IMG/VR virus record: IMGVR_UViG_2693429557_000011
From: a virus
Taxonomy: Duplodnaviria; Heunggongvirae; Uroviricota; Caudoviricetes
Direction: 5' to 3' (one strand)
DNA: 29,524 bases
This document shows positions 1,935 to 20,937 of this stretch, piece after piece (positions within the stretch are counted from its first letter, which is position 1; each line of letters opens with the position of its first letter). The position numbers were made by a program, and so were the translations under genes. The notes below the pieces were generated by a model. It did not search any database. It saw only the letters and a program-made list of their open reading frames with translations, and was not told where the DNA came from.

Positions 1935-2915
1935 CTAACGTCCTGCTTTTAACAATAACCAGATAAACACCGGCGCACCCAACGTTGCGGTGACCACGCC
2001 AATAGGCAGCTCTGCGGCAGCTAATGCCAGGCGCGCTACAATATCGGCCAGCAGCACTGCGCTCGCCCCTGCCAGCGCGCAGCCGGGAAGTAATACGCGA
2101 TGATCGGTTAAACCACACAACCGAAGAATATGTGGGATCACCAGACCAATAAAGCCGATAGCACCCGCCAGCGCCACACTGACGCCAACCATCCAGCCGG
2201 TCGCTGCCACCAGCACATTGCGCCAGAACCACAGGGGTAAACCCAGTTGCCGCGCCGAGATCTCGCCAAGTGCTAACATATTCATCGGCCTGGACTGACA
2301 ACAGATCCACAACAACACGGGGATCAATGCCAGCATCAGCCAGCTTTGCCGCCAGTCTACGCCGCCAAAACCGCCCATCATCCAGTACATCAGCTGACGT
2401 AAATCAACAGAGGTGGAAAAGTAGATAGCCCACGTCATTAGTGCGCTACAGATAATCCCTAATGCAACGCCAGCCAGCAATAACCGACTGGTCGAAAGAT
2501 GACGACGGGCGAAACGTAAGAGTATTAAAGTGATGATAAGCGCGCCAGCAATCGCACACAGCCCTAGCGCCCAGTTGGGGAGTTGCCCTTGCCCAAGCAA
2601 TACCGCGGCGATAAGCCCCACGCCTGCGCCGTTAGAGACGCCAAGTAGTCCAGGTTCTGCCAGAGGATTTTCAAACAACGCCTGCATTACAGCGCCGGAT
2701 ATAGCCAGCGCCGCACCAACCAGCAATACAGCCAGCGTACGTGGCAGGCGAATTTGCCAGACGAACAGTTCGCCACGAGGAGTAAACCAGTCACCTGGCG
2801 AAATCCATTGTTCACCGGCGCAAAGGCTTAAGAGAAGCGCCAGCAGCATCAAAACTGACAGGCATAATAACCAGCGAATATTTTGTCGCTGTTGTTGGCG
2901 GGCAAGTGTCAGCAT
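1935..2915 (-). CDS. btuC: Vitamin B12 ABC transporter permease (326 aa)
   Basis: A polytopic hydrophobic protein of the FecCD permease family, 326 aa like E. coli BtuC, and first gene of the btuCED block. Confidence 0.95.
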
Positions 2916-2974
2916 GGTATCCGTTCTGCTGAAGTGTCATGGCGTTGATTTTACGGTGACTCTTCGACAGTGAA

Positions 2975-2998
2975 AAGAAAAAAGGCCGCAGAGCGGCC
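2975..2998 (-). terminator. Rho-independent terminator read on the minus strand
   Basis: On the plus strand an A-run (aagaaaaaa) is followed by ggccgc-aga-gcggcc. On the minus strand this is a 6-bp GC stem with a 3-nt loop followed by a U-run. It lies about 110 bp downstream of the moron pair and just upstream of btuC. Confidence 0.6.
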
Positions 2999-3107
2999 AT
3001 AAACACAAACAAAAATCAATAAGTTAGGTAATTATCAAAGACTTACAGACACACAAAAACACAGCCAACCACAACAAATAACAGAGATGTGGTCAATTTG
3101 TGGATCA

Positions 3108-3662
3108 TCAGCCAACAAATTTAGCAACAAATACAGCAACCGCCGCTGTGAAAATGGTTGTGCACACTGGCACAATAATGCCACTCCAACGCCACTTCGT
3201 ATTATCATCAACCTTGTCAAACCGCCGATTCATCTCATCCATAATCTTGTCAAAGCGTTTATCCATCGCTTCGGTAAGCTCACCCTTCAGGCTGTTAATG
3301 TCTGATTTGAGCTGCTCTTTCAGGTTAGCTGTATCAGATTTAAGCTCACCTTTCAGATTCGCAATATCGCATTCAAGATCACCTTTCAGATGTGCTATGT
3401 CTGCTTTGAGTTCACCTTTCACCTCACCAACATCGGCTTTAGTTGAGAGGTTTGTAGTGCGTTCAGCAAGCGTCGCAAGGTCGTTTCTTGTTAGCGATAA
3501 ATCACCTTCGAGCCGCTCAATTCGCCTTTCAAGTTTATCTGACATTCCGCCTCCACTACTGCCGCCATCGCCACCATGATAAAGCACATCACGCTCAGAA
3601 TGCGACACACTACCTGCTGAATTACCGAAAAGATTTCTTGCTACATTACCCATTATCACCAT
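3108..3662 (-). CDS. Coiled-coil, C-terminally membrane-anchored protein with five 11-residue repeats (184 aa as drawn; probably 145 aa from the internal ATG at 3545)
   Basis: The ORF contains five tandem 11-aa repeats (e.g. KGELKADIAHL, KGDLECDIANL, KGELKSDTANL), encoded by 33-bp DNA repeats. The C-terminus WRWSGIIVPVCTTIFTAAVAVFVAKFVG is a single hydrophobic helix. The internal ATG at 3545 has a GGAGG RBS (ggaggcggaATG), whereas the longer start overlaps the upstream gene by 17 nt. Its GC content is low relative to the phage backbone. Confidence 0.7.
   Translation of the reverse strand: MVIMGNVARNLFGNSAGSVSHSERDVLYHGGDGGSSGGGMSDKLERRIERLEGDLSLTRNDLATLAERTTNLSTKADVGEVKGELKADIAHLKGDLECDIANLKGELKSDTANLKEQLKSDINSLKGELTEAMDKRFDKIMDEMNRRFDKVDDNTKWRWSGIIVPVCTTIFTAAVAVFVAKFVG
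3284..3448. repeat. Five imperfect tandem 33-bp repeats (each starting ctttcag on the plus strand) inside the 3108-3662 ORF
   Basis: This is read directly from the sequence, e.g. ctttcaggttagctgtatcagatttaagctcac, ctttcagattcgcaatatcgcattcaagatcac and ctttcagatgtgctatgtctgctttgagttcac. They encode the 11-aa protein repeats. Confidence 0.85.
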
Positions 3663-4146
3663 CCTGCGCTTTGTCTTTCTCCAACCACTTCAGCACCGCA
3701 GACGTACGATAAAGGCTCAGGTAACCACAATTCAGGCAATGCAGCGTGTAATAAGTTTTGCGCATATCAGGTATGCTCTTAACATCACCCAAAAAAGCAT
3801 AAGATACATAATGCTTTATGTTCTCTTTAATTAACTCACTCTGTTCCTCCAGGGGTAGATTGTTAAAATTTTCTGGTTTCTTATTTTTATCCCAGCAAAG
3901 ATCCATACTTTCTGGAACAGATAATCGCGACGATCCACATGAAGGGCAGACACTGGAGACCCCCTTCTCAGACAAGAAACGGAAGAAGATTTCTGGCGTA
4001 ATCTCCATCAGCCGCTCTTTATGTTTTTTGACACGACTCATCGACTTCTTATTGATTTCATCAGCTTCTTCTTTGCATTTATCTTCTATATATTTCGATA
4101 GTAAATAGTCATATAACTCTTTTTTTGTAGGTTTTTTTATTTCCAT
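3646..4146 (-). CDS. Hypothetical zinc-binding protein (166 aa), very AT-rich
   Basis: Two CxxCG motifs (CPSCG and CLNCG) about 70 residues apart are compatible with a four-Cys zinc site, and the N-terminus is K/E-rich. The start ATG lies 2 nt after the int stop codon, with a GGGAGG RBS inside the int 3' end, so it is translationally coupled to int. GC is about 35 percent versus about 52 percent for the phage backbone. Confidence 0.75.
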   Translation of the reverse strand: MEIKKPTKKELYDYLLSKYIEDKCKEEADEINKKSMSRVKKHKERLMEITPEIFFRFLSEKGVSSVCPSCGSSRLSVPESMDLCWDKNKKPENFNNLPLEEQSELIKENIKHYVSYAFLGDVKSIPDMRKTYYTLHCLNCGYLSLYRTSAVLKWLEKDKAQDGDNG

Positions 4147-4148
4147 AG

Positions 4149-5126
4149 TTACATTCCTCCCAAGGGATTAAACCTCACCGCATCCTGCAAGTAATCCGGC
4201 GCAAGATGGGCATAAATCATCGTTGTCTGAATCTTTGCGTGCCCCAGAATTTTCTGGAGCGTCAGAATATTGCCGCCGTTCATCATGAAATGACTGGCGA
4301 AGGTGTGGCGCAGCGCATGAACAGCCTGGCCGTCAGGAACATCAGGTGCGACCGTTTTGATGACATCGCGAACCAATGAATAATCCAGCGTCGGAAACAC
4401 CAGTTTCCCGCCCCGTTTTTTGATCTTTTCAAACAGGCTTTCAGAAATAGGAACGGTACGGTTTTTGCTGTTCTTCGTTTTTGAAAAAGTGATTCGACAA
4501 TGAAGAACACGGCGCTGCTCCAGTGCCGCTACCTCGCCCCATCGCGCCCCGGTCGACAGAAGGATTTCGACGGCCAGCCGTTCATCGGGATTTTCAGCCA
4601 GTGCATCCAGCAACTGAACACATTCAGACTTACTCAGATATCCCATTTCACGCTCGTTAACCTTCATTCCTTTAAGGCCTTGAACGGGGTTATCGTTAAG
4701 AAAATGGCCGGATGAGATGAGTGCGGTAAACATCGCGCTTAACGCCCCAATCTCTCGATTTATGGTGCTGGGCTGTATCCCCTGCTCTATCCTGGACACA
4801 CGTAGCTCGGTGAGCATCGTTGTATTAAGTTTATGCACGCACGGGTCATCCATTGCCTCACTCAAGCGCAGCAATTTAAGGCGCGTGTTATGCCCTGACT
4901 TCATTAGCTGGCCGTGGTATTTCCACCACAAGTCAATAAGCACTGACAGCGGACGGCGATCAATGGAGTTTCCTTTCCACTCATTGTTATGCTGTTGCGC
5001 CAGCACCCACCGCTCATATAAAACTGCATCCGATTTCGTTTTAAATTTTTTGCGAATGCGTTTGCCTTTACGCCCCTCAGGACGCATGTCAAGAAGATAC
5101 CCTCCCGGAATTGATTTTATGCTCAT
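4149..5126 (-). CDS. int: P2-type tyrosine integrase (about 325 aa, starting at the internal Met MSIKSIPGGY)
   Basis: The sequence aligns along its length with my recall of P2 Int (MAIKKLDDGRYEVDIRPTGRNGKRIRRKF vs MSIKSIPGGYLLDMRPEGRKGKRIRKKF). The catalytic region carries ARWGE, HALRH and a Y in MIYAHL. The six-frame ORF extends to 5276, but the homology starts at 5126. Confidence 0.9.
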   Translation of the reverse strand: MSIKSIPGGYLLDMRPEGRKGKRIRKKFKTKSDAVLYERWVLAQQHNNEWKGNSIDRRPLSVLIDLWWKYHGQLMKSGHNTRLKLLRLSEAMDDPCVHKLNTTMLTELRVSRIEQGIQPSTINREIGALSAMFTALISSGHFLNDNPVQGLKGMKVNEREMGYLSKSECVQLLDALAENPDERLAVEILLSTGARWGEVAALEQRRVLHCRITFSKTKNSKNRTVPISESLFEKIKKRGGKLVFPTLDYSLVRDVIKTVAPDVPDGQAVHALRHTFASHFMMNGGNILTLQKILGHAKIQTTMIYAHLAPDYLQDAVRFNPLGGM

Positions 5127-5175: not shown

Positions 5176-5487
5176 TTAGCCGGGCTGTGTGCCAGTCTTG
5201 CGGGATTTTTGAGAAGACGATGTGTTTTCTGGCCCATCAGGGGAGAGAGAAGGACTGATCTGCCCAGCAGCCTCATTTGTTTCGTTACTCATCAACCACG
5301 TAGTGTATTTTTTAAATTCCGGGTGCATTGTGATTTTCAGTAAAACCTCCGTTCCCACACCTCGAATACCAGTCTCGTATTGCTTAACCGTACCAACCGC
5401 AATACCTATTGAATCCGCGAACTTTGCCTGACTAAGCCCCTCAGATTCTCGAATTGCTTTTAGCTTCTTTGATATCTCTATTGACAT
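5176..5487 (-). CDS. C: P2 C-type immunity repressor (103 aa, start MSIEISKK)
   Basis: An HTH_XRE-like N-terminus is present, and the C-terminal part (HPEFKKYTTWLMSNE..AGQISPSL) resembles P2 C as recalled (QFTKYTLWFMTNQ..SGQIAPAL). It sits directly upstream of int on the same strand, divergent from cox. Confidence 0.8.
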   Translation of the reverse strand: MSIEISKKLKAIRESEGLSQAKFADSIGIAVGTVKQYETGIRGVGTEVLLKITMHPEFKKYTTWLMSNETNEAAGQISPSLSPDGPENTSSSQKSRKTGTQPG

Positions 5488-5875: not shown

Positions 5876-6214
5876 ATGCTGAAGCAACGCCGTAATTTTT
5901 GTACCGGAACAGAACGCCACGCTAACCGTTTCACTACCAGTGCATCACGCAGCAACATCCGCTACAGCCTGAGTGATACACACGCAACGCCGGATGGCTA
6001 CCCAGTAAAACAAATCGGCGAGCACGCCTGGCTGATTGAGAAAGCTGGAATCGTGATCCACAAATGCCCACGCAATCCGTTTACCGGAAACCGCATTTTT
6101 GCACTGAGCTGTGGCGACAATCAGTTCGGGCAGGATTTCACATTATACGAAGCACTTCGCACGGTTGATCGTCTGCTTCGCGGGCAAAGTTTTATTAAAC
6201 AGGCTGATTTATAA
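5876..6214 (+). CDS. Hypothetical early-operon protein (112 aa)
   Basis: The ORF is in the early operon after cox. I recognise no family; the start codon is uncertain. Confidence 0.45.
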   Translation: MLKQRRNFCTGTERHANRFTTSASRSNIRYSLSDTHATPDGYPVKQIGEHAWLIEKAGIVIHKCPRNPFTGNRIFALSCGDNQFGQDFTLYEALRTVDRLLRGQSFIKQADL

Positions 6215-10820: not shown

Positions 10821-11780
10821 ATGAAAATTTGTATCGACGACGGCTCCACCAACATCAAGCTGGCATGGACTGAGAACGGCGAACGCCGCAACGCCATCAG
10901 CCCGAACAGCTTCAAGTCGGAATGGTCTGCGCCGTTCGGTGGCATGCAGCCCGCGAACTACATGCTTGATGGCGTGCGCTATGGTTTTGATCCGGTCAGC
11001 GATCGCTTTGTCCAGACAACCGACACGCAATACCAGTACAGCGATGTAAATGTCATTGCCATTCATCACGCGCTGGTCAAATCAGGCATCACGCCACAGG
11101 AGGTGGATGTGGTTGTCACCCTGCCACTGAGCGAGTATTTCGACACAAACGCACAGCCGGACATGGCCAACATCAACCGCAAAAAAGCGAACGTTATGCG
11201 CCCGGTGGAGTACCAGAACGGCGAAGCATTCACTATCCGTAACGTGCGGGTTATGCCTGAATCCATTCCGGCTGGCTTTAAGGCACTGGCTGACATGAGT
11301 CCGTTTGAATCCCTGCTGATTGTGGATTTGGGCGGAACCACGCTGGATGTGGCAAAGGTTCAGGGGCAACTGGCAGGTATCAGCCAGGTGTTTTGCGATC
11401 CACACGTAGGCGTTTCTCTGATGGCCGATGCCGTACTGTCGGTGATGGCCACTAACGGTATGCGCACCAGTCACCACATCGCCAATACCATTATCGAACA
11501 TCGCCATGATGAAGCCTGGCTGCGCCAGCACATCCACAATGACGCGCATTACGCCAGCCTGATGGCGGTTATTCGTGAAAAGGAAGAAACACTGAAACAA
11601 CGCGTGATCCGCGCGCTGGCGGGTTTTTCGGGTTACGGGCGGGTGATGGTTGTCGGTGGAGGGGCGGAGATTGTGGCACCCGCTATCCGCGAAGCCTGCG
11701 GAGTTAATGCGACTTTCATCGCGGACGGGGTGCCACAGTTTGCTCTGGTTAATGGGCTGTACGCAATGGACAAGGAGTAA
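10821..11780 (+). CDS. parM: ParM/StbA-family actin-like segregation ATPase (319 aa)
   Basis: The N-terminus MKICIDDGSTNIKLAW matches my recall of the plasmid R1 ParM (StbA) N-terminus MLVFIDDGSTNIKLQW. Further actin-fold motifs LIVDLGGTTLDV and VMVVGGGAEIV are present, and the length matches ParM (~320 aa). Confidence 0.85.
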   Translation: MKICIDDGSTNIKLAWTENGERRNAISPNSFKSEWSAPFGGMQPANYMLDGVRYGFDPVSDRFVQTTDTQYQYSDVNVIAIHHALVKSGITPQEVDVVVTLPLSEYFDTNAQPDMANINRKKANVMRPVEYQNGEAFTIRNVRVMPESIPAGFKALADMSPFESLLIVDLGGTTLDVAKVQGQLAGISQVFCDPHVGVSLMADAVLSVMATNGMRTSHHIANTIIEHRHDEAWLRQHIHNDAHYASLMAVIREKEETLKQRVIRALAGFSGYGRVMVVGGGAEIVAPAIREACGVNATFIADGVPQFALVNGLYAMDKE

Positions 11781-11784
11781 ACCA

Positions 11785-12096
11785 ATGACGACACCAACCA
11801 GACGGATAAGTTTCTATCTGAAGCCTGCGGCCGTCAAGAACGAAAGCGAAGCATGCGCCTGGCTGGGCAGCCTTACACCAGAAGCCCGCAAAAGCGGCCA
11901 ACGCGTGGCTTTTCTGGCCGGGCTGGCACTTCTGAAAATGAATCCAGCAGAGGCTTACCGACTGGCTGCATGGGCTGACGATGAGGCGTTATCGGTGACA
12001 CAAACCAGGACAGAACGCCCCGTGCCACAGCCAGTACCAACCGCACAGATAACCAGTCAGATAGCAGGGAATATCCGGGCATTATTTCCTGAATGA
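11785..12096 (+). CDS. parR: ParR-like centromere-binding adaptor (103 aa, start MTTPTRRISF)
   Basis: It lies 4 nt after the parM stop with an AAGGAG RBS. Segments RISFYLKP, RVAFLAGLALLKMNP and IRALFPE resemble R1 ParR as recalled (RTIAFKLNP, RAALTAGLALYRQDP, ILRSLFPKE), and the gene order parM-parR matches R1. Confidence 0.65.
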   Translation: MTTPTRRISFYLKPAAVKNESEACAWLGSLTPEARKSGQRVAFLAGLALLKMNPAEAYRLAAWADDEALSVTQTRTERPVPQPVPTAQITSQIAGNIRALFPE

Positions 12097-12156
12097 CGAA
12101 TTTGACGGCTTTTAATTTTATCGGGGTGCACTGTCGCCCCGCACGAGGAAAACACG

Positions 12157-20112: not shown

Positions 20113-20408
20113 CAGGTTTTTTTCAGCGGGTGAGTGACTGGATCACCTTCTGGGCATCAGTCACAGCCACCACAATAGGCGTGATGACCATCAGTGAAAA
20201 AATCGCCCTTGCCGGGTTGTTACTCGGTTCTCTGTCTGCATTACATGCCTGGCGACATCGCCGCCTGATGGAAACCGCCATGCAGCGTCGCAATGAACTC
20301 ATCGCCAGTATCCTGGCGCAGTCAGACGCACGGCCACTTCACGACAGTGAGCGTCAGGCTCTGAACATTCTGCGGGATAACGATACACATGATAAAGCTG
20401 CCCGTTAA
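20106..20408 (+). CDS. Putative holin (100 aa, two hydrophobic segments)
   Basis: It sits directly upstream of the endolysin. It has two predicted TM helices (WITFWASVTATTIGVMTI and IALAGLLLGSLSALHAW) and a charged C-terminus. It is not similar to P2 Y as I recall it. Confidence 0.5.
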   Translation: MVTGFFQRVSDWITFWASVTATTIGVMTISEKIALAGLLLGSLSALHAWRHRRLMETAMQRRNELIASILAQSDARPLHDSERQALNILRDNDTHDKAAR

Positions 20409-20937
20409 ACGTTACGCCGTAGCCGCCATTGTGGCGCTGGGGTTCTCCATTGCCCCTCACAAACTCCGGACCAGCCCGGAAGCGCAAATCCGCATTGCCA
20501 CATGGGAGGACTGTCGCGCAACGCCTTACCGGGATATTGCCGGGGTAATGACCGTGGGGTGCGGCTCGACCGGGCATGTGGAAAATCGTCTGTACACCGA
20601 AACGGAAGTCGCCGGGCGCTGGGTTAATGATATGCAACATGCAGAAAACTGCATAAATCAGAACTTCAGCGGCAACGCCATGCCACAGTCCGCGTTTGAG
20701 GCAATGACAGATGCCGCCTTTAATCTTGGATGCAGAAATCTTATGTGGTTCAGGGATAAGAACCGTAACTACCACCGCACCACTATCTGGAAACATGCAC
20801 AGGCGCACAACTGGCCTGACATGTGCAACAGACTGACTGACTTCGTGAACAGCGGCGGCGAACGCTCACAGGGACTGGTTAACCGTCGTACTGATTTTCG
20901 TGCATGGTGCTTACGTGACACCGGAGGCCAGTCATGA
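20389..20937 (+). CDS. SAR-endolysin, T4-lysozyme-like muramidase with N-terminal signal-anchor-release domain (182 aa)
   Basis: An N-terminal weakly hydrophobic Gly/Ala-rich segment (YAVAAIVALGFSIAP) is followed by an E-x8-D/C-x5-T catalytic arrangement (ATWEDCRATPYRDIAGVMTVGCGSTGH), as in phage P21 R-type SAR lysozymes. It differs from the P2 K lysozyme as recalled. Confidence 0.75.
   Translation: MIKLPVKRYAVAAIVALGFSIAPHKLRTSPEAQIRIATWEDCRATPYRDIAGVMTVGCGSTGHVENRLYTETEVAGRWVNDMQHAENCINQNFSGNAMPQSAFEAMTDAAFNLGCRNLMWFRDKNRNYHRTTIWKHAQAHNWPDMCNRLTDFVNSGGERSQGLVNRRTDFRAWCLRDTGGQS

What the first reader, a model, noticed from the sequence alone, without database searches (positions are those of the whole stretch)
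3108..3662. Tail-anchored protein built from five 11-residue repeats encoded by 33-bp tandem DNA repeats
The DNA at 3284-3448 is an imperfect 5x33-bp tandem array encoding 11-mers of the form K-G-[ED]-L-[KE]-x-D-[IT]-A-x-L. An 11-residue periodicity (rather than heptads) is characteristic of right-handed coiled coils and amphipathic lipid-binding helices of the apolipoprotein/LEA type. Combined with a single C-terminal TM helix this gives a membrane-anchored rod. The overall architecture is reminiscent of the E. coli ElaB/YqjD/YgaM C-tail-anchored family, but with an expanded repeat region. The 33-bp repeats are also a substrate for repeat-number variation by slippage or recombination.
Basis: seen in the sequence. 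Interest (0 to 1): 0.55.

Follow-up and report, generated by a model that had tools for sequence, protein, structure and literature searches.

The report
Prophage Bdr-like membrane-anchored coiled-coil stalk
This is a real gene in a P2-like E. coli prophage for a small membrane-anchored rod built from 11-residue repeats; it belongs to the known but functionally unexplained DUF1640/CCDC90/Bdr family and is always paired with a small zinc-ribbon protein.

Summary
A minus-strand gene ending at 3108 has four clear 33-bp (11-residue) units at 3419-3288, a degenerate unit on each side, and one C-terminal TM helix. At offset 33, 69 of 99 bases match; none of 20,000 codon-resampled arrays reached this.

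The ElaB/YqjD reading is not supported. The protein is a DUF1640/CCDC90-like, Bdr-like protein, as RefSeq already labels it. The only invariant residues in 25 homologues are the T, K and D of L-S-T-K-A-D, the beta-layer motif of trimeric coiled coils, and a Trp before the TM helix. After that motif the rod has hendecad periodicity (3.67).

Repeat number does vary: 0 to 6 core units among relatives, including DNA-identical recent duplications and a hybrid 33-bp duplication.

The likely start is ATG 3653 (181 aa).

New here: the gene is always translationally coupled to an uncharacterised four-Cys zinc-ribbon gene (3646-4146). The pair sits in the cI-int lysogeny operon of P2-like prophages, either between int and att or between cI and int.

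Function is unknown. My best guess is a cytoplasmic membrane scaffold that holds the zinc-ribbon partner, possibly for exclusion of or defence against other phages. It is a new member of a known kind, of modest interest.

The parts
3108..3653 (-). Coding sequence of the DUF1640/CCDC90-like (Bdr-like) tail-anchored stalk protein, 181 aa, stop codon at 3108-3110; preferred start ATG 3653
   Evidence: ORF. The same 181-aa call is the dominant cluster, P0001. An AGGA lies 8 nt upstream of the ATG, and there is an 8-nt overlap (ATGGGTAA) with the upstream gene's stop. The N-terminal extension stays open and conserved in distant homologues, and its indels are in frame.
3546..3653 (-). N-terminal variable peptide (aa 1-27, includes ERDVLYH) plus Gly-rich linker GGDGGSSGGG (aa 28-36)
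   Evidence: pLDDT is below 50 for residues 1-35, predicted disordered. A Gly-rich linker followed by Met is conserved in remote homologues. L035 carries an in-frame GGD expansion. The type of N-terminus covaries with the type of upstream zinc-ribbon gene.
3543..3545 (-). Internal ATG (Met37), the RefSeq start; GGAGG lies 4 nt upstream; possible second initiation site
   Evidence: The RefSeq CDS at locus 20209-20646 corresponds to window 3108-3545. Sequence. This Met is conserved after the linker across the family. Its use as a start was not tested.
3453..3545 (-). N-terminal helix MSDKLERRIERLEGDLSLTRNDLATLAERTT with heptad-like hydrophobic spacing
   Evidence: For the segment aa 37-70, which includes this helix, hydrophobic power peaks at 3.5-3.6 residues; 0.5% of shuffles reach it. 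L41, E42, R44, R47 and E49 are nearly invariant.
3420..3452 (-). First 11-residue unit, NLSTKADVGEV, carrying the beta-layer motif L-S-T-K-A-D
   Evidence: T71, K72 and D74 are three of only four invariant columns in 25 homologues. They match [aliphatic]-A-T-K-[polar]-[DE], described for DUF1640 stalks in PMC4786415. The family profile aligns this unit with the ATKxD units of PDB 6h9l and 5apz.
3288..3419 (-). Four core hendecad units encoded by four 33-bp tandem repeats (aa 79-122)
   Evidence: Similarity is concentrated in codon positions 1-2 (about 82-86% for the three most similar pairs) against 45-55% at third positions, so the constraint is on the protein. A 13-nt exact junction repeat, ATCTGAAAGGTGA, recurs at offset 33.
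3255..3287 (-). Degenerate sixth unit, KGELTEAMDKR
   Evidence: it shares 15-19 of 33 nt with the core units and keeps the 11-residue frame.
3189..3254 (-). Two further 11-residue units, FDKIMDEMNRR and FDKVDDNTKWR, ending in the invariant Trp154
   Evidence: W154 invariant. The segment aa 123-155, which contains them, has hydrophobic period 3.67-3.75; no shuffle reached it.
3123..3179 (-). Single C-terminal transmembrane helix IIVPVCTTIFTAAVAVFVA, followed by KFVG
   Evidence: Best 19-residue Kyte-Doolittle window 2.43, against a maximum of 0.17 in residues 1-140. AF2 places a helix at 153-180.
3646..4146 (-). Partner gene: uncharacterised four-Cys zinc-ribbon protein (166 aa, phrog_4293), translationally coupled to the stalk gene
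4149..5126 (-). Tyrosine integrase of the P2-like prophage
   Evidence: Pfam Int_N 2e-28 and Phage_integrase 6e-20. RefSeq CDS.
5176..5487 (-). cI-type HTH repressor, first gene of the leftward lysogeny operon
   Evidence: RefSeq annotation. The same HTH_3 gene precedes int in all related loci.
2984..2998 (-). GC-rich hairpin plus T-run terminator downstream of the stalk gene; the prophage/host junction (attL side) is at about 2998
   Evidence: Terminator scan. In prophage-free E. coli genomes, homology to the window stops at 2998.

Best explanation
What it is. The gene encodes a 181-aa tail-anchored inner-membrane protein of the DUF1640/CCDC90-like family, the family of the Borrelia Bdr proteins and of mitochondrial MCUR1/CCDC90B.

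Anatomy, N to C:
- a roughly 27-residue variable, disordered peptide
- a Gly-rich hinge
- a roughly 30-residue heptad-like helix
- one beta-layer motif (L-S-T-K-A-D)
- about eight 11-residue units (hendecads)
- an invariant Trp
- one TM helix, with only four residues beyond it

Inferred structure.
- It is a parallel homotrimer, because beta-layers are a feature of trimeric coiled coils.
- It forms a rod of about 16 nm that stands on the cytoplasmic face of the inner membrane. Its three flexible N-terminal peptides are at the far end.
- Each 33-bp unit adds about 1.6 nm.
- Units are gained and lost by slippage or unequal recombination.

Genomic setting. The gene is the last gene of the cI-int lysogeny operon of a P2-like prophage inserted at the ihfA/btuC intergenic terminator. 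It is translationally coupled to a conserved four-Cys zinc-ribbon protein.

Proposed role, inferred and not shown.
- The rod is a membrane scaffold whose N-terminal peptides dock the zinc-ribbon partner and hold it at the membrane in the lysogen.
- The pair acts in conflict between mobile elements, either as superinfection exclusion or as a sensor plus membrane-effector defence.

My confidence is about 0.85 for identity and architecture, about 0.5 for the complex with the zinc-ribbon protein, and about 0.25-0.3 for the exclusion or defence role.
For: Family.
- RefSeq names the gene 'DUF1640 domain-containing protein' or 'CCDC90 family protein'.
- Pfam CCDC90-like matches 20 of 25 homologues, best E = 6e-12.
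- The invariant columns are T71, K72, D74 and W154. T-K-x-D matches the beta-layer motif reported for DUF1640 stalks (PMC4786415).
- The family profile hits PDB 6h9l, which is deposited with three chains and has 11-residue ATKEDIEALRK repeats, and 5apz, Tcar0761.
- tblastn against plasmids finds mainly Borrelia 'Bdr family repetitive protein'.
- hhalign against a Bdr protein gives probability 97.3%, E = 2e-11, and the alignment includes the K-W + TM end. The Bdr sequence has VKSDLKSDIMS 11-mers.
- There are 4,178 cluster representatives at E <= 1e-3. Of the 134 small ones among the 143 listed hits not already in hand, 113 have a C-terminal hydrophobic segment, 108 have 11 as their strongest autocorrelation offset, and 94 have the motif.

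Architecture.
- The N-helix has period 3.5-3.6. The repeats have 3.63-3.67. The whole rod has 3.67, and 0.1% of shuffles reach that.
- There is a single TM segment.
- AF2 gives disorder at 1-35, a helix at 37-147 and a helix at 153-180.

Repeat dynamics.

Operon and partner.
- The order cI-int-ZnR-stalk-att is seen in E. coli, Salmonella and Klebsiella, at different att sites.
- The pair is kept but lies between cI and int in L058 and L059.
- The junctions show an SD sequence, then a stop, then an immediate GTG/ATG, or an 8-nt overlap.
- The N-terminal type of the stalk covaries with the zinc-ribbon type.

Hotspot. The int-att interval of P2-like prophages has been reported as a minor defence hotspot (PMC13586616).
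Against: - The window protein itself scores 24.5 bits on Pfam CCDC90-like, below the 33.5-bit gathering cut-off. Membership therefore rests on its homologues and on motifs.
- Coiled-coil and repeat composition inflates HMM and hhalign scores. The PDB hits are marginal (E = 0.004).
- The AF2 monomer is low-confidence (pLDDT 60.5) and shows no break at the beta-layer motif.
- Trimer state, topology, expression in the lysogen and any contact with the zinc-ribbon protein are all inferred.
- PADLOC gives only weak coiled-coil matches.
- No member of the prokaryotic family has a known function. Bdr functions 'have yet to be discovered' (PMC10016077).
- The pair is conserved rather than swapped, which is less typical of a defence hotspot cargo.
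Confidence: 0.75

Rival explanations
1. It is an ElaB/YqjD/YgaM-type (DUF883) C-tail-anchored protein with an expanded repeat region, tethering ribosomes or other stress factors to the membrane.
For: The gross architecture is the same: a small, helical, charged cytoplasmic part and one C-terminal TM helix.
Against: At E <= 0.01 the window protein matches five Pfam families, and DUF883 is not one of them. DUF883 is also absent from the 25 families most often matched by the 25 homologues. The conserved signature (TKxD beta-layer motif, 11-mers, Trp before the TM helix) is that of DUF1640/Bdr. The gene is prophage cargo found in 39 of 5,426 complete E. coli genomes, not a core stress gene.
Confidence: 0.04
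2. The 11-mers form an amphipathic, lipid-binding 3-11 helix of the apolipoprotein / LEA / synuclein type that lies on the membrane surface rather than forming a coiled-coil rod.
For: Pfam Apolipoprotein gives a sub-threshold match: 25.9 bits against a cut-off of 90, and 18 of 25 homologues match. The 11-residue periodicity is shared. Each unit has a Gly.
Against: On a 3.67-residue wheel the hydrophobic stripe is only three residues wide (L, I/T, L). Lys lies on one flank and Asp/Glu on the other, which is the pattern for inter-helix salt bridges in a parallel bundle and not the class-A lipid-binding pattern (read from the sequence). The invariant trimer-specific beta-layer motif precedes the repeats. 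The closest solved relatives are trimeric fibres.
Confidence: 0.06
3. It is an XhlA- or holin-like membrane-lesion protein. It would be either a lysis accessory factor or the toxic TM effector of an abortive-infection pair, with the zinc-ribbon protein as sensor or antitoxin.
For: There are weak matches of the C-terminal half to phrog_689 'holin' (E = 0.004) and phrog_1193 'hemolysin' (E = 0.023). XhlA matches 1 of 25 homologues at E = 0.0014. The pair has a two-gene architecture with a TM protein, in an interval reported as a minor defence hotspot. TM proteins are common effectors in such systems (PMC9122126).
Against: The gene lies in the lysogeny operon, far from the phage's own holin, endolysin and spanin genes. 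The matches are near noise. One TM helix per chain and a long rigid stalk are not typical of holins. There is no PADLOC hit.
Confidence: 0.15
4. The 33-bp repeats act at the DNA level, as integrase arm sites, iterons or other protein-binding sites next to att, and the ORF is incidental.
For: The array lies only about 300-420 bp from the prophage end.
Against: Similarity between units is concentrated in codon positions 1-2 (about 82-86% for the most similar pairs) against 45-55% at third positions. The same 11-mers recur in proteins of Borrelia, Aliivibrio and Liberibacter phages with unrelated DNA. The pair also occurs away from att, between cI and int. The ORF is kept open, with its TM helix, in all homologues.
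Confidence: 0.02

Closest known systems
Borrelia Bdr ('Borrelia direct repeat') proteins of cp32 prophage-plasmids and linear plasmids
   Same: - Both are small proteins carried on mobile elements.
- Both have a run of 11-residue repeats of nearly the same form (Bdr VKSDLKSDIMS against KGELKSDTANL here).
- Both end in K-W plus one C-terminal TM helix.
- tblastn gives E = 1e-5 and hhalign gives 97.3% probability.
- The B. miyamotoi proteomics paper (PMC6856195) lists a plasmid-encoded 18-kDa 'DUF1640 domain-containing protein'; I did not check whether it is a Bdr.
[quoted passage not shown]
   Different: The Bdr protein examined has L-T-F-K-D-L where this family has the invariant S/A-T-K-x-D. 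It has no Gly-rich linker and no zinc-ribbon partner in the one locus examined. It has a longer N-terminal domain and comes from a different phylum. Homology rests on repeat-rich alignments and may be overstated.
DUF1640 / CCDC90-like family (Pfam PF07798): human MCUR1 and CCDC90B, yeast Put6/Put7, and many prokaryotic members
   Same: Both have the beta-layer motif [aliphatic]-A-T-K-x-[DE] at the start of a C-terminal coiled-coil stalk followed by a TM anchor (PMC4786415). The Pfam match covers model positions 68-170 of 175. The eukaryotic members are matrix-facing membrane scaffolds (PMC7519068).
   Different: The Pfam match starts at model position 68, so the N-terminal part of the model is not matched. 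Instead there is a roughly 27-residue peptide, a Gly hinge and a short heptad helix. The window protein scores below the Pfam cut-off (24.5 against 33.5 bits). The stalk here is made of a variable number of near-identical hendecads.
PDB 6h9l ('uncharacterized protein', three chains) and Tcar0761 (PDB 5apz), the alpha/beta coiled coils of Hartmann et al. 2016
   Same: The family profile aligns LSTKADVGEV-KGELKADIAHL with MATKEDIEALR-KATKEDIEDLR of 6h9l, in 11-residue register. The first unit has all the residues of an N-capping beta-layer: hydrophobic beta1, beta3 = T, e = K, g = D.
   Different: In 6h9l and Tcar0761 every repeat carries A-T-K-x-D. Here only the first unit does. The later units have E-L-K-x-D, where beta3 would be Leu, which is not one of D/N/T/S, so I infer they are ordinary helical hendecads. 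The E-values are marginal (0.004).
ElaB/YqjD/YgaM (DUF883) and XhlA (PF10779)
   Same: Both are C-tail-anchored, mostly helical small proteins. XhlA also has a Trp-containing segment before its TM helix; this last point is from my own knowledge and was not tested here.
   Different: There is no DUF883 match. XhlA matches only 1 of 25 homologues, at E = 0.0014.

Membership tests
DUF1640 / CCDC90-like (PF07798) | Match to the Pfam model above its gathering score | tested here: inconclusive
   The window protein scores 24.5 bits against a cut-off of 33.5 (E = 2.7e-5). 20 of 25 homologues match at E <= 0.01, best 6.4e-12. RefSeq assigns this name.
DUF1640 / CCDC90-like (PF07798) | Beta-layer motif [aliphatic]-A-T-K-[polar]-[DE] at the start of the C-terminal stalk (PMC4786415) | tested here: met
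   L69-S-T-K-A-D74 is present. T, K and D are invariant in 25 homologues.
DUF1640 / CCDC90-like (PF07798) | C-terminal transmembrane anchor after the stalk | tested here: met
   Residues 159-177, Kyte-Doolittle 2.43, with four residues after them. 113 of the 134 small relatives examined also have a C-terminal hydrophobic segment.
DUF1640 / CCDC90-like (PF07798) | Region N-terminal to the beta-layer motif matching the first third of the Pfam model (where a globular head would lie) | tested here: not met
   The Pfam match starts at model position 68 of 175. Residues 1-35 are predicted disordered, and 37-67 form a single helix.
DUF1640 / CCDC90-like (PF07798) | Homotrimeric parallel coiled coil | not testable with these tools
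   Only monomer prediction is available. The trimer is inferred from the beta-layer motif, which is specific to trimers, and from the three chains deposited for 6h9l.
Borrelia Bdr family | Central tandem 11-residue repeats, variable in number, plus a C-terminal hydrophobic anchor | tested here: met
   The Bdr sequence shows 11-mers and K-W + TM. Copy-number variation in this family is shown. That Bdr copy number also varies is from my own knowledge.
Borrelia Bdr family | Match to an NCBI 'Bdr family repetitive protein' model, and spirochaete origin | tested here: not met
   NCBIfam lists no Bdr family for this protein at E <= 1. The host is E. coli.
ElaB/YqjD/YgaM (DUF883) | Match to Pfam DUF883 | tested here: not met
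   DUF883 is not among the five families matched at E <= 0.01 by the window protein, nor among the 25 families most often matched by the 25 homologues.
XhlA (PF10779) | Match to the Pfam XhlA model and a position in a lysis cassette | tested here: not met
   The window protein has no match at E <= 0.01, and 1 of 25 homologues matches at 0.0014. The gene is in the cI-int operon, while the holin and endolysin genes lie about 17 kb away.
Known anti-phage defence systems (PADLOC-DB v2) | Significant match of either protein of the pair to a defence-system model | tested here: not met
   There are only coiled-coil-type matches to parts of LmuB, ZorA and LeoBC (E = 4e-5 to 1e-2), and for the zinc-ribbon protein one match at E = 0.005.

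The most novel reading that the evidence does not exclude
The zinc-ribbon protein and the DUF1640-like stalk together form an undescribed two-gene superinfection-exclusion or anti-phage module of the lysogeny operon of P2-like prophages.

In this reading the trimeric rod holds the zinc-ribbon sensor or effector at a set distance under the inner membrane, by way of its N-terminal docking peptides. Gain and loss of hendecads, together with swapping of the N-terminal peptide and its partner as a cassette, would tune or diversify specificity.

If true, this would give a first function to a prokaryotic member of the DUF1640 family, to which the long-unexplained Borrelia Bdr proteins appear to belong.
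Probability: 0.25. Interest if true: 0.65.

Novelty: new member of a known kind. Interest (0 to 1): 0.35.

Why it matters
- Prokaryotic DUF1640/Bdr-like proteins are numerous: 4,178 cluster representatives at E <= 1e-3. Those whose context was examined here were mostly on prophages, phages or plasmids. None has a known function.
- This enterobacterial subgroup is genetically tractable. It comes with a fixed partner gene, a defined operon that is probably expressed in the lysogen, and natural alleles that differ only in rod length.
- That makes it a convenient system for asking what these membrane-anchored rods do, and whether hendecad number acts as a molecular ruler.
- Practical points for annotation: the RefSeq start is probably 36 codons too short, and the partner zinc-ribbon gene is left unannotated in several genomes.

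Tried and rejected
- Structure prediction of the stalk as a monomer gave a low-confidence single long helix (pLDDT 60.5). It cannot show a trimer or a beta-layer, so I did not run a fold search on it.
- A trimer or complex prediction is not possible with the tool.
- The zinc-ribbon family has only 37 relatives, all unnamed or labelled hypothetical/uncharacterised, with no Pfam domain.
- The search for related loci with the alignment failed for lack of a conserved stretch. The genome-contig scan with the single protein gave only two loci.
- The paper that probably describes 6h9l and the prokaryotic DUF1640 members (Adlakha et al. 2019, Structure 27:464) is not held. The Bdr paper PMC116504 is not held either.
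- Considered and rejected: ElaB/DUF883 kinship, an apolipoprotein-like lipid-binding helix, a DNA-level function for the repeats, and the plus-strand shadow ORF 3100-3579 (it mirrors the repeats, while all homologues are conserved in the minus-strand frame).
- The idea that the 121-aa ORF seen in some loci is a different middle gene was wrong. It is the alternative frame of an intact but unannotated zinc-ribbon gene.
Full report
**Setting**

The window is E. coli chromosome, 100% identical to O26 strain RM8426 over the part searched. The genes nlpC, btuD, btuE and btuC occupy 30-2915 on the minus strand.

A P2-like prophage begins at about 2998. In prophage-free genomes, homology to the window stops there, inside a GC-rich terminator hairpin at 2984-2998.

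Reading inwards from that end, all on the minus strand, the prophage carries:
- the gene under study, 3108-3653
- a 166-aa gene, 3646-4146
- a tyrosine integrase, 4149-5126
- a cI-type HTH repressor, 5176-5487

After these come the rightward early operon, gpA, ParM and the P2-type morphogenesis and lysis genes.

Only 39 of 5,426 complete E. coli genomes carry the gene. In the loci inspected it lies at this same chromosomal site.

**The observation**

The ORF, the repeats and the anchor are all real.
- In 33-nt register there are four clear units at 3419-3288: KGELKADIAHL, KGDLECDIANL, KGELKSDTANL and KEQLKSDINSL.
- A degenerate unit lies on each side: NLSTKADVGEV at 3452-3420 and KGELTEAMDKR at 3287-3255.
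- Two more 11-mers of another type follow: FDKIMDEMNRR and FDKVDDNTKWR.
- Tandem Repeats Finder reports period 33.
- At offset 33, 69 of 99 bases match. None of 20,000 codon-resampled arrays reached this; the maximum seen was 46.
- Similarity between units sits in codon positions 1-2 (about 82-86% for the most similar pairs). Third positions are only 45-55% identical. The units in this allele are therefore old and are kept alike by selection on the protein, not on the DNA.
- The only hydrophobic segment is residues 159-177, and four residues follow it.

**Start codon**

I prefer ATG 3653 (181 aa), for four reasons.
- The dominant database cluster is called at this start (P0001, 181 aa).
- It has an AGGA 8 nt upstream and overlaps the stop of the upstream gene by 8 nt, as ATGGGTAA.
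- In relatives with a different N-terminus, the upstream gene ends GGGAGG(N8)-stop, and a GTG or ATG that opens the long form follows at once.
- The N-terminal extension stays open and ends in a conserved Gly-rich linker even in remote homologues. Its length differences are all in frame; L035, for example, has nine extra residues, a tripled GGD.

The Met at 3545 is itself conserved and has a GGAGG 4 nt upstream. A second, internal start cannot be excluded.

**What the protein is**

Family scans.
- Pfam gives only sub-threshold matches for this sequence: Apolipoprotein 25.9 bits, Mer2 25.2 bits and CCDC90-like 24.5 bits against a cut-off of 33.5.
- Across 25 homologues, CCDC90-like (formerly DUF1640) is the most consistent family: 20 of 25 match, best E = 6e-12.
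- DUF883, the ElaB family, does not appear. XhlA appears once, weakly.

The alignment of homologues.
- It has only four invariant columns: T71, K72, D74 and W154.
- L-S-T-K-A-D fits the motif [aliphatic]-A-T-K-[polar]-[DE], which Hartmann et al. described as the beta-layer of parallel trimeric coiled coils. They noted that it stands 'prominently at the beginning of the C-terminal stalk' of DUF1640 membrane proteins (PMC4786415).
- All the residues of their N-capping network are present: a hydrophobic beta1, beta3 = T, e = K and g = D.

Solved structures. A profile of the family finds two marginal matches (E = 0.004), and both carry this motif:
- 6h9l, deposited with three chains, has 11-residue ATKEDIEALRK repeats.
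- 5apz is Tcar0761.

Borrelia Bdr.
- tblastn against plasmids returns mostly Borrelia 'Bdr family repetitive protein'.
- A B. miyamotoi Bdr has VKSDLKSDIMS 11-mers and ends in K-W plus a TM helix.
- hhalign gives 97.3% probability.
- These scores are helped by repeat composition, so I treat them as support and not as proof.

Size of the family.
- An exhaustive profile search finds 4,178 cluster representatives at E <= 1e-3.
- Of the 134 small ones among the 143 listed hits not already in hand, 113 have a C-terminal hydrophobic segment, 108 have 11 as their strongest autocorrelation offset, and 94 have the motif.
- The architecture is therefore common and already has a name.

**Architecture and likely structure**

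- Hydrophobic periodicity is 3.5-3.6 in the helix before the motif, 3.63-3.67 in the repeats, and 3.67 over the whole rod. Only 0.1% of shuffles reach the last value, and there is no signal at 3.5.
- Within a unit the core positions are L4, I/T8 and L11, a spacing of 4-3-4.
- On a 3.67-residue wheel, Lys lies on one flank of this stripe and Asp/Glu on the other. That is what a parallel bundle with inter-helix salt bridges needs, and it is not the pattern of a lipid-binding class-A helix.
- The later units read E-L-K-x-D, so the would-be beta3 residue is Leu. I infer that only the first unit forms a beta-layer and that the rest are helical hendecads.
- The AF2 monomer is low-confidence. It shows disorder at 1-35, one long helix at 37-147 and a TM helix at 153-180.
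- The protein has no signal peptide and a highly charged body. The side of the TM helix facing the body carries a net positive charge, and only KFVG follows the helix. The rod should therefore be cytoplasmic. This is an inference.
- About 110 helical residues give a rod of roughly 16 nm, and each unit adds about 1.6 nm.

**Repeat dynamics**

Close homologues differ by whole units.
- Protein lengths run 192/181/170/159/148 for long-form gene calls and 156/145/134/123/112 for short-form calls.
- L019 and L041 carry an extra unit whose 5' part equals unit 3 and whose 3' part equals unit 2. This is a 33-bp tandem duplication with breakpoints inside the units.
- P0003 lacks unit 2 exactly.
- L006 has three KGELKADIAHL units, the first two 33/33 identical in DNA and the third differing by one base, where its sister allele L003 has one. 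Both alleles have two identical KSEFKCDIANL units.
- In this window a 13-nt exact repeat, ATCTGAAAGGTGA, recurs at the unit junctions.
- A Providencia relative has no hendecads at all.
- Most E. coli alleles nevertheless have the same number as this window, so changes are occasional.

**The partner gene**

The 166-aa upstream gene matches phrog_4293 (unknown function).
- It has four invariant Cys in two CxxC pairs and folds confidently, with pLDDT 86.6.
- It has 37 database relatives, all enterobacterial and all unnamed or labelled hypothetical/uncharacterised.

A homologue of 129-166 aa lies directly upstream of the stalk gene in every enterobacterial locus I examined.
- This includes loci where RefSeq shows a gap (L002, L004) but an intact gene is present.
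- It also includes remote relatives, in loci L051 and L052.
- In L058 and L059 the pair lies between cI and int instead of between int and att. It therefore moves as a unit within the lysogeny operon.
- One more distant relative (L053) has a different upstream gene. Members lacking the Gly linker, such as L056, show other contexts.

The N-terminal peptide of the stalk changes together with the type of zinc-ribbon protein: MGNVARN... goes with the 166-aa form, and M/V-AYAK..GxTxI.. goes with the roughly 130-aa form. The exchange point is at the Gly-rich linker.

**Function**

Nothing here shows a function, and none is known for Bdr.

These points are shown:
- the position in the cI-int operon
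- the tight translational coupling to a conserved partner
- a variable tip and a variable rod length

These points are inferred:
- expression in the lysogen
- a complex between the rod's N-terminal peptides and the zinc-ribbon protein
- a role in competition between mobile elements

The int-att interval of P2-like prophages has been reported as a minor defence hotspot, holding 3% of P2 systems (PMC13586616). Against that, PADLOC finds nothing convincing, and the pair is conserved rather than swapped. I put the exclusion or defence reading at about 0.25-0.3.

**Verdict**

The ElaB comparison is not supported.

The protein is a new member, lacking the head region, of the known DUF1640/CCDC90/Bdr kind, and it is already labelled as such in RefSeq.

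The added value here is the corrected start, the beta-layer plus hendecad anatomy, the direct evidence for unit gain and loss, and the conserved zinc-ribbon partner.

Noticed in passing
window 3646-4146 (-); also L002:3521-3925, L004, L007:5599-6000, L011:5611-6000, L058:3501-3896, L059:3501-3896: An uncharacterised four-Cys zinc-ribbon protein (phrog_4293) lies directly upstream of the stalk gene and is translationally coupled to it. The model is confident but has no PDB neighbour. RefSeq leaves the gene unannotated in several genomes where it is intact.
   Followed up: yes
L002 around 3926-3931; L007 and L011 at 5998-6003: In many loci the zinc-ribbon ORF and the stalk ORF are in the same reading frame, separated by a single stop codon (TGA or TAA) that is followed at once by GTG. 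This fits termination-reinitiation. Stop-codon readthrough giving a fusion protein is not excluded.
   Followed up: partly
window 3543-3545 (-): The Met right after the Gly-rich linker is conserved across the family and has a GGAGG 4 nt upstream. Long and short isoforms from two start sites are possible.
   Followed up: no
window about 3575-3595 (-), peptide ERDVLYH; the same region in L057-L059: The otherwise variable N-terminal peptide contains a short conserved motif, roughly [RH]-[GD]-[VI]-[TL]-x-[LIY]. It is a candidate docking motif.
   Followed up: partly
L035, linker region of the stalk gene: The linker has an in-frame tripling of GGD (GGDGGDGGDGGSSGGG). This is a second, smaller repeat that expands and contracts within the same gene.
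   Followed up: partly
window 2984-2998: The prophage/host junction falls inside the terminator hairpin between the stalk gene and btuC. The att core therefore seems to include or rebuild this terminator.
   Followed up: partly
window about 10821-12100 (+) (L001 27922-29197): This P2-like prophage carries ParM and a plasmid partition/stability protein just after gpA. Separately, according to PMC10016077, one bdr copy on Borrelia cp32 lies next to the replication locus. Any link between the two facts is speculative.
   Followed up: no
L005 (E. coli M1/5) 2823-4337; L049 3' end of the gene: Damaged alleles exist. An ISEc52 insertion removes the 5' part of the stalk gene together with int. In L049 the reading frame changes before the TM helix.
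   Followed up: partly
P0056 (3006 aa), P0057, P0076, P0096 and others: Giant proteins of 1,200-3,000 aa contain many stretches that match the same 11-mer profile. Their strongest autocorrelation offset is 22 or 25, and they have no C-terminal TM segment.
   Followed up: no
window 3100-3579 (+): A 159-aa plus-strand ORF mirrors the repeat array (SPFR... units). It is very probably a shadow of the minus-strand gene.
   Followed up: partly
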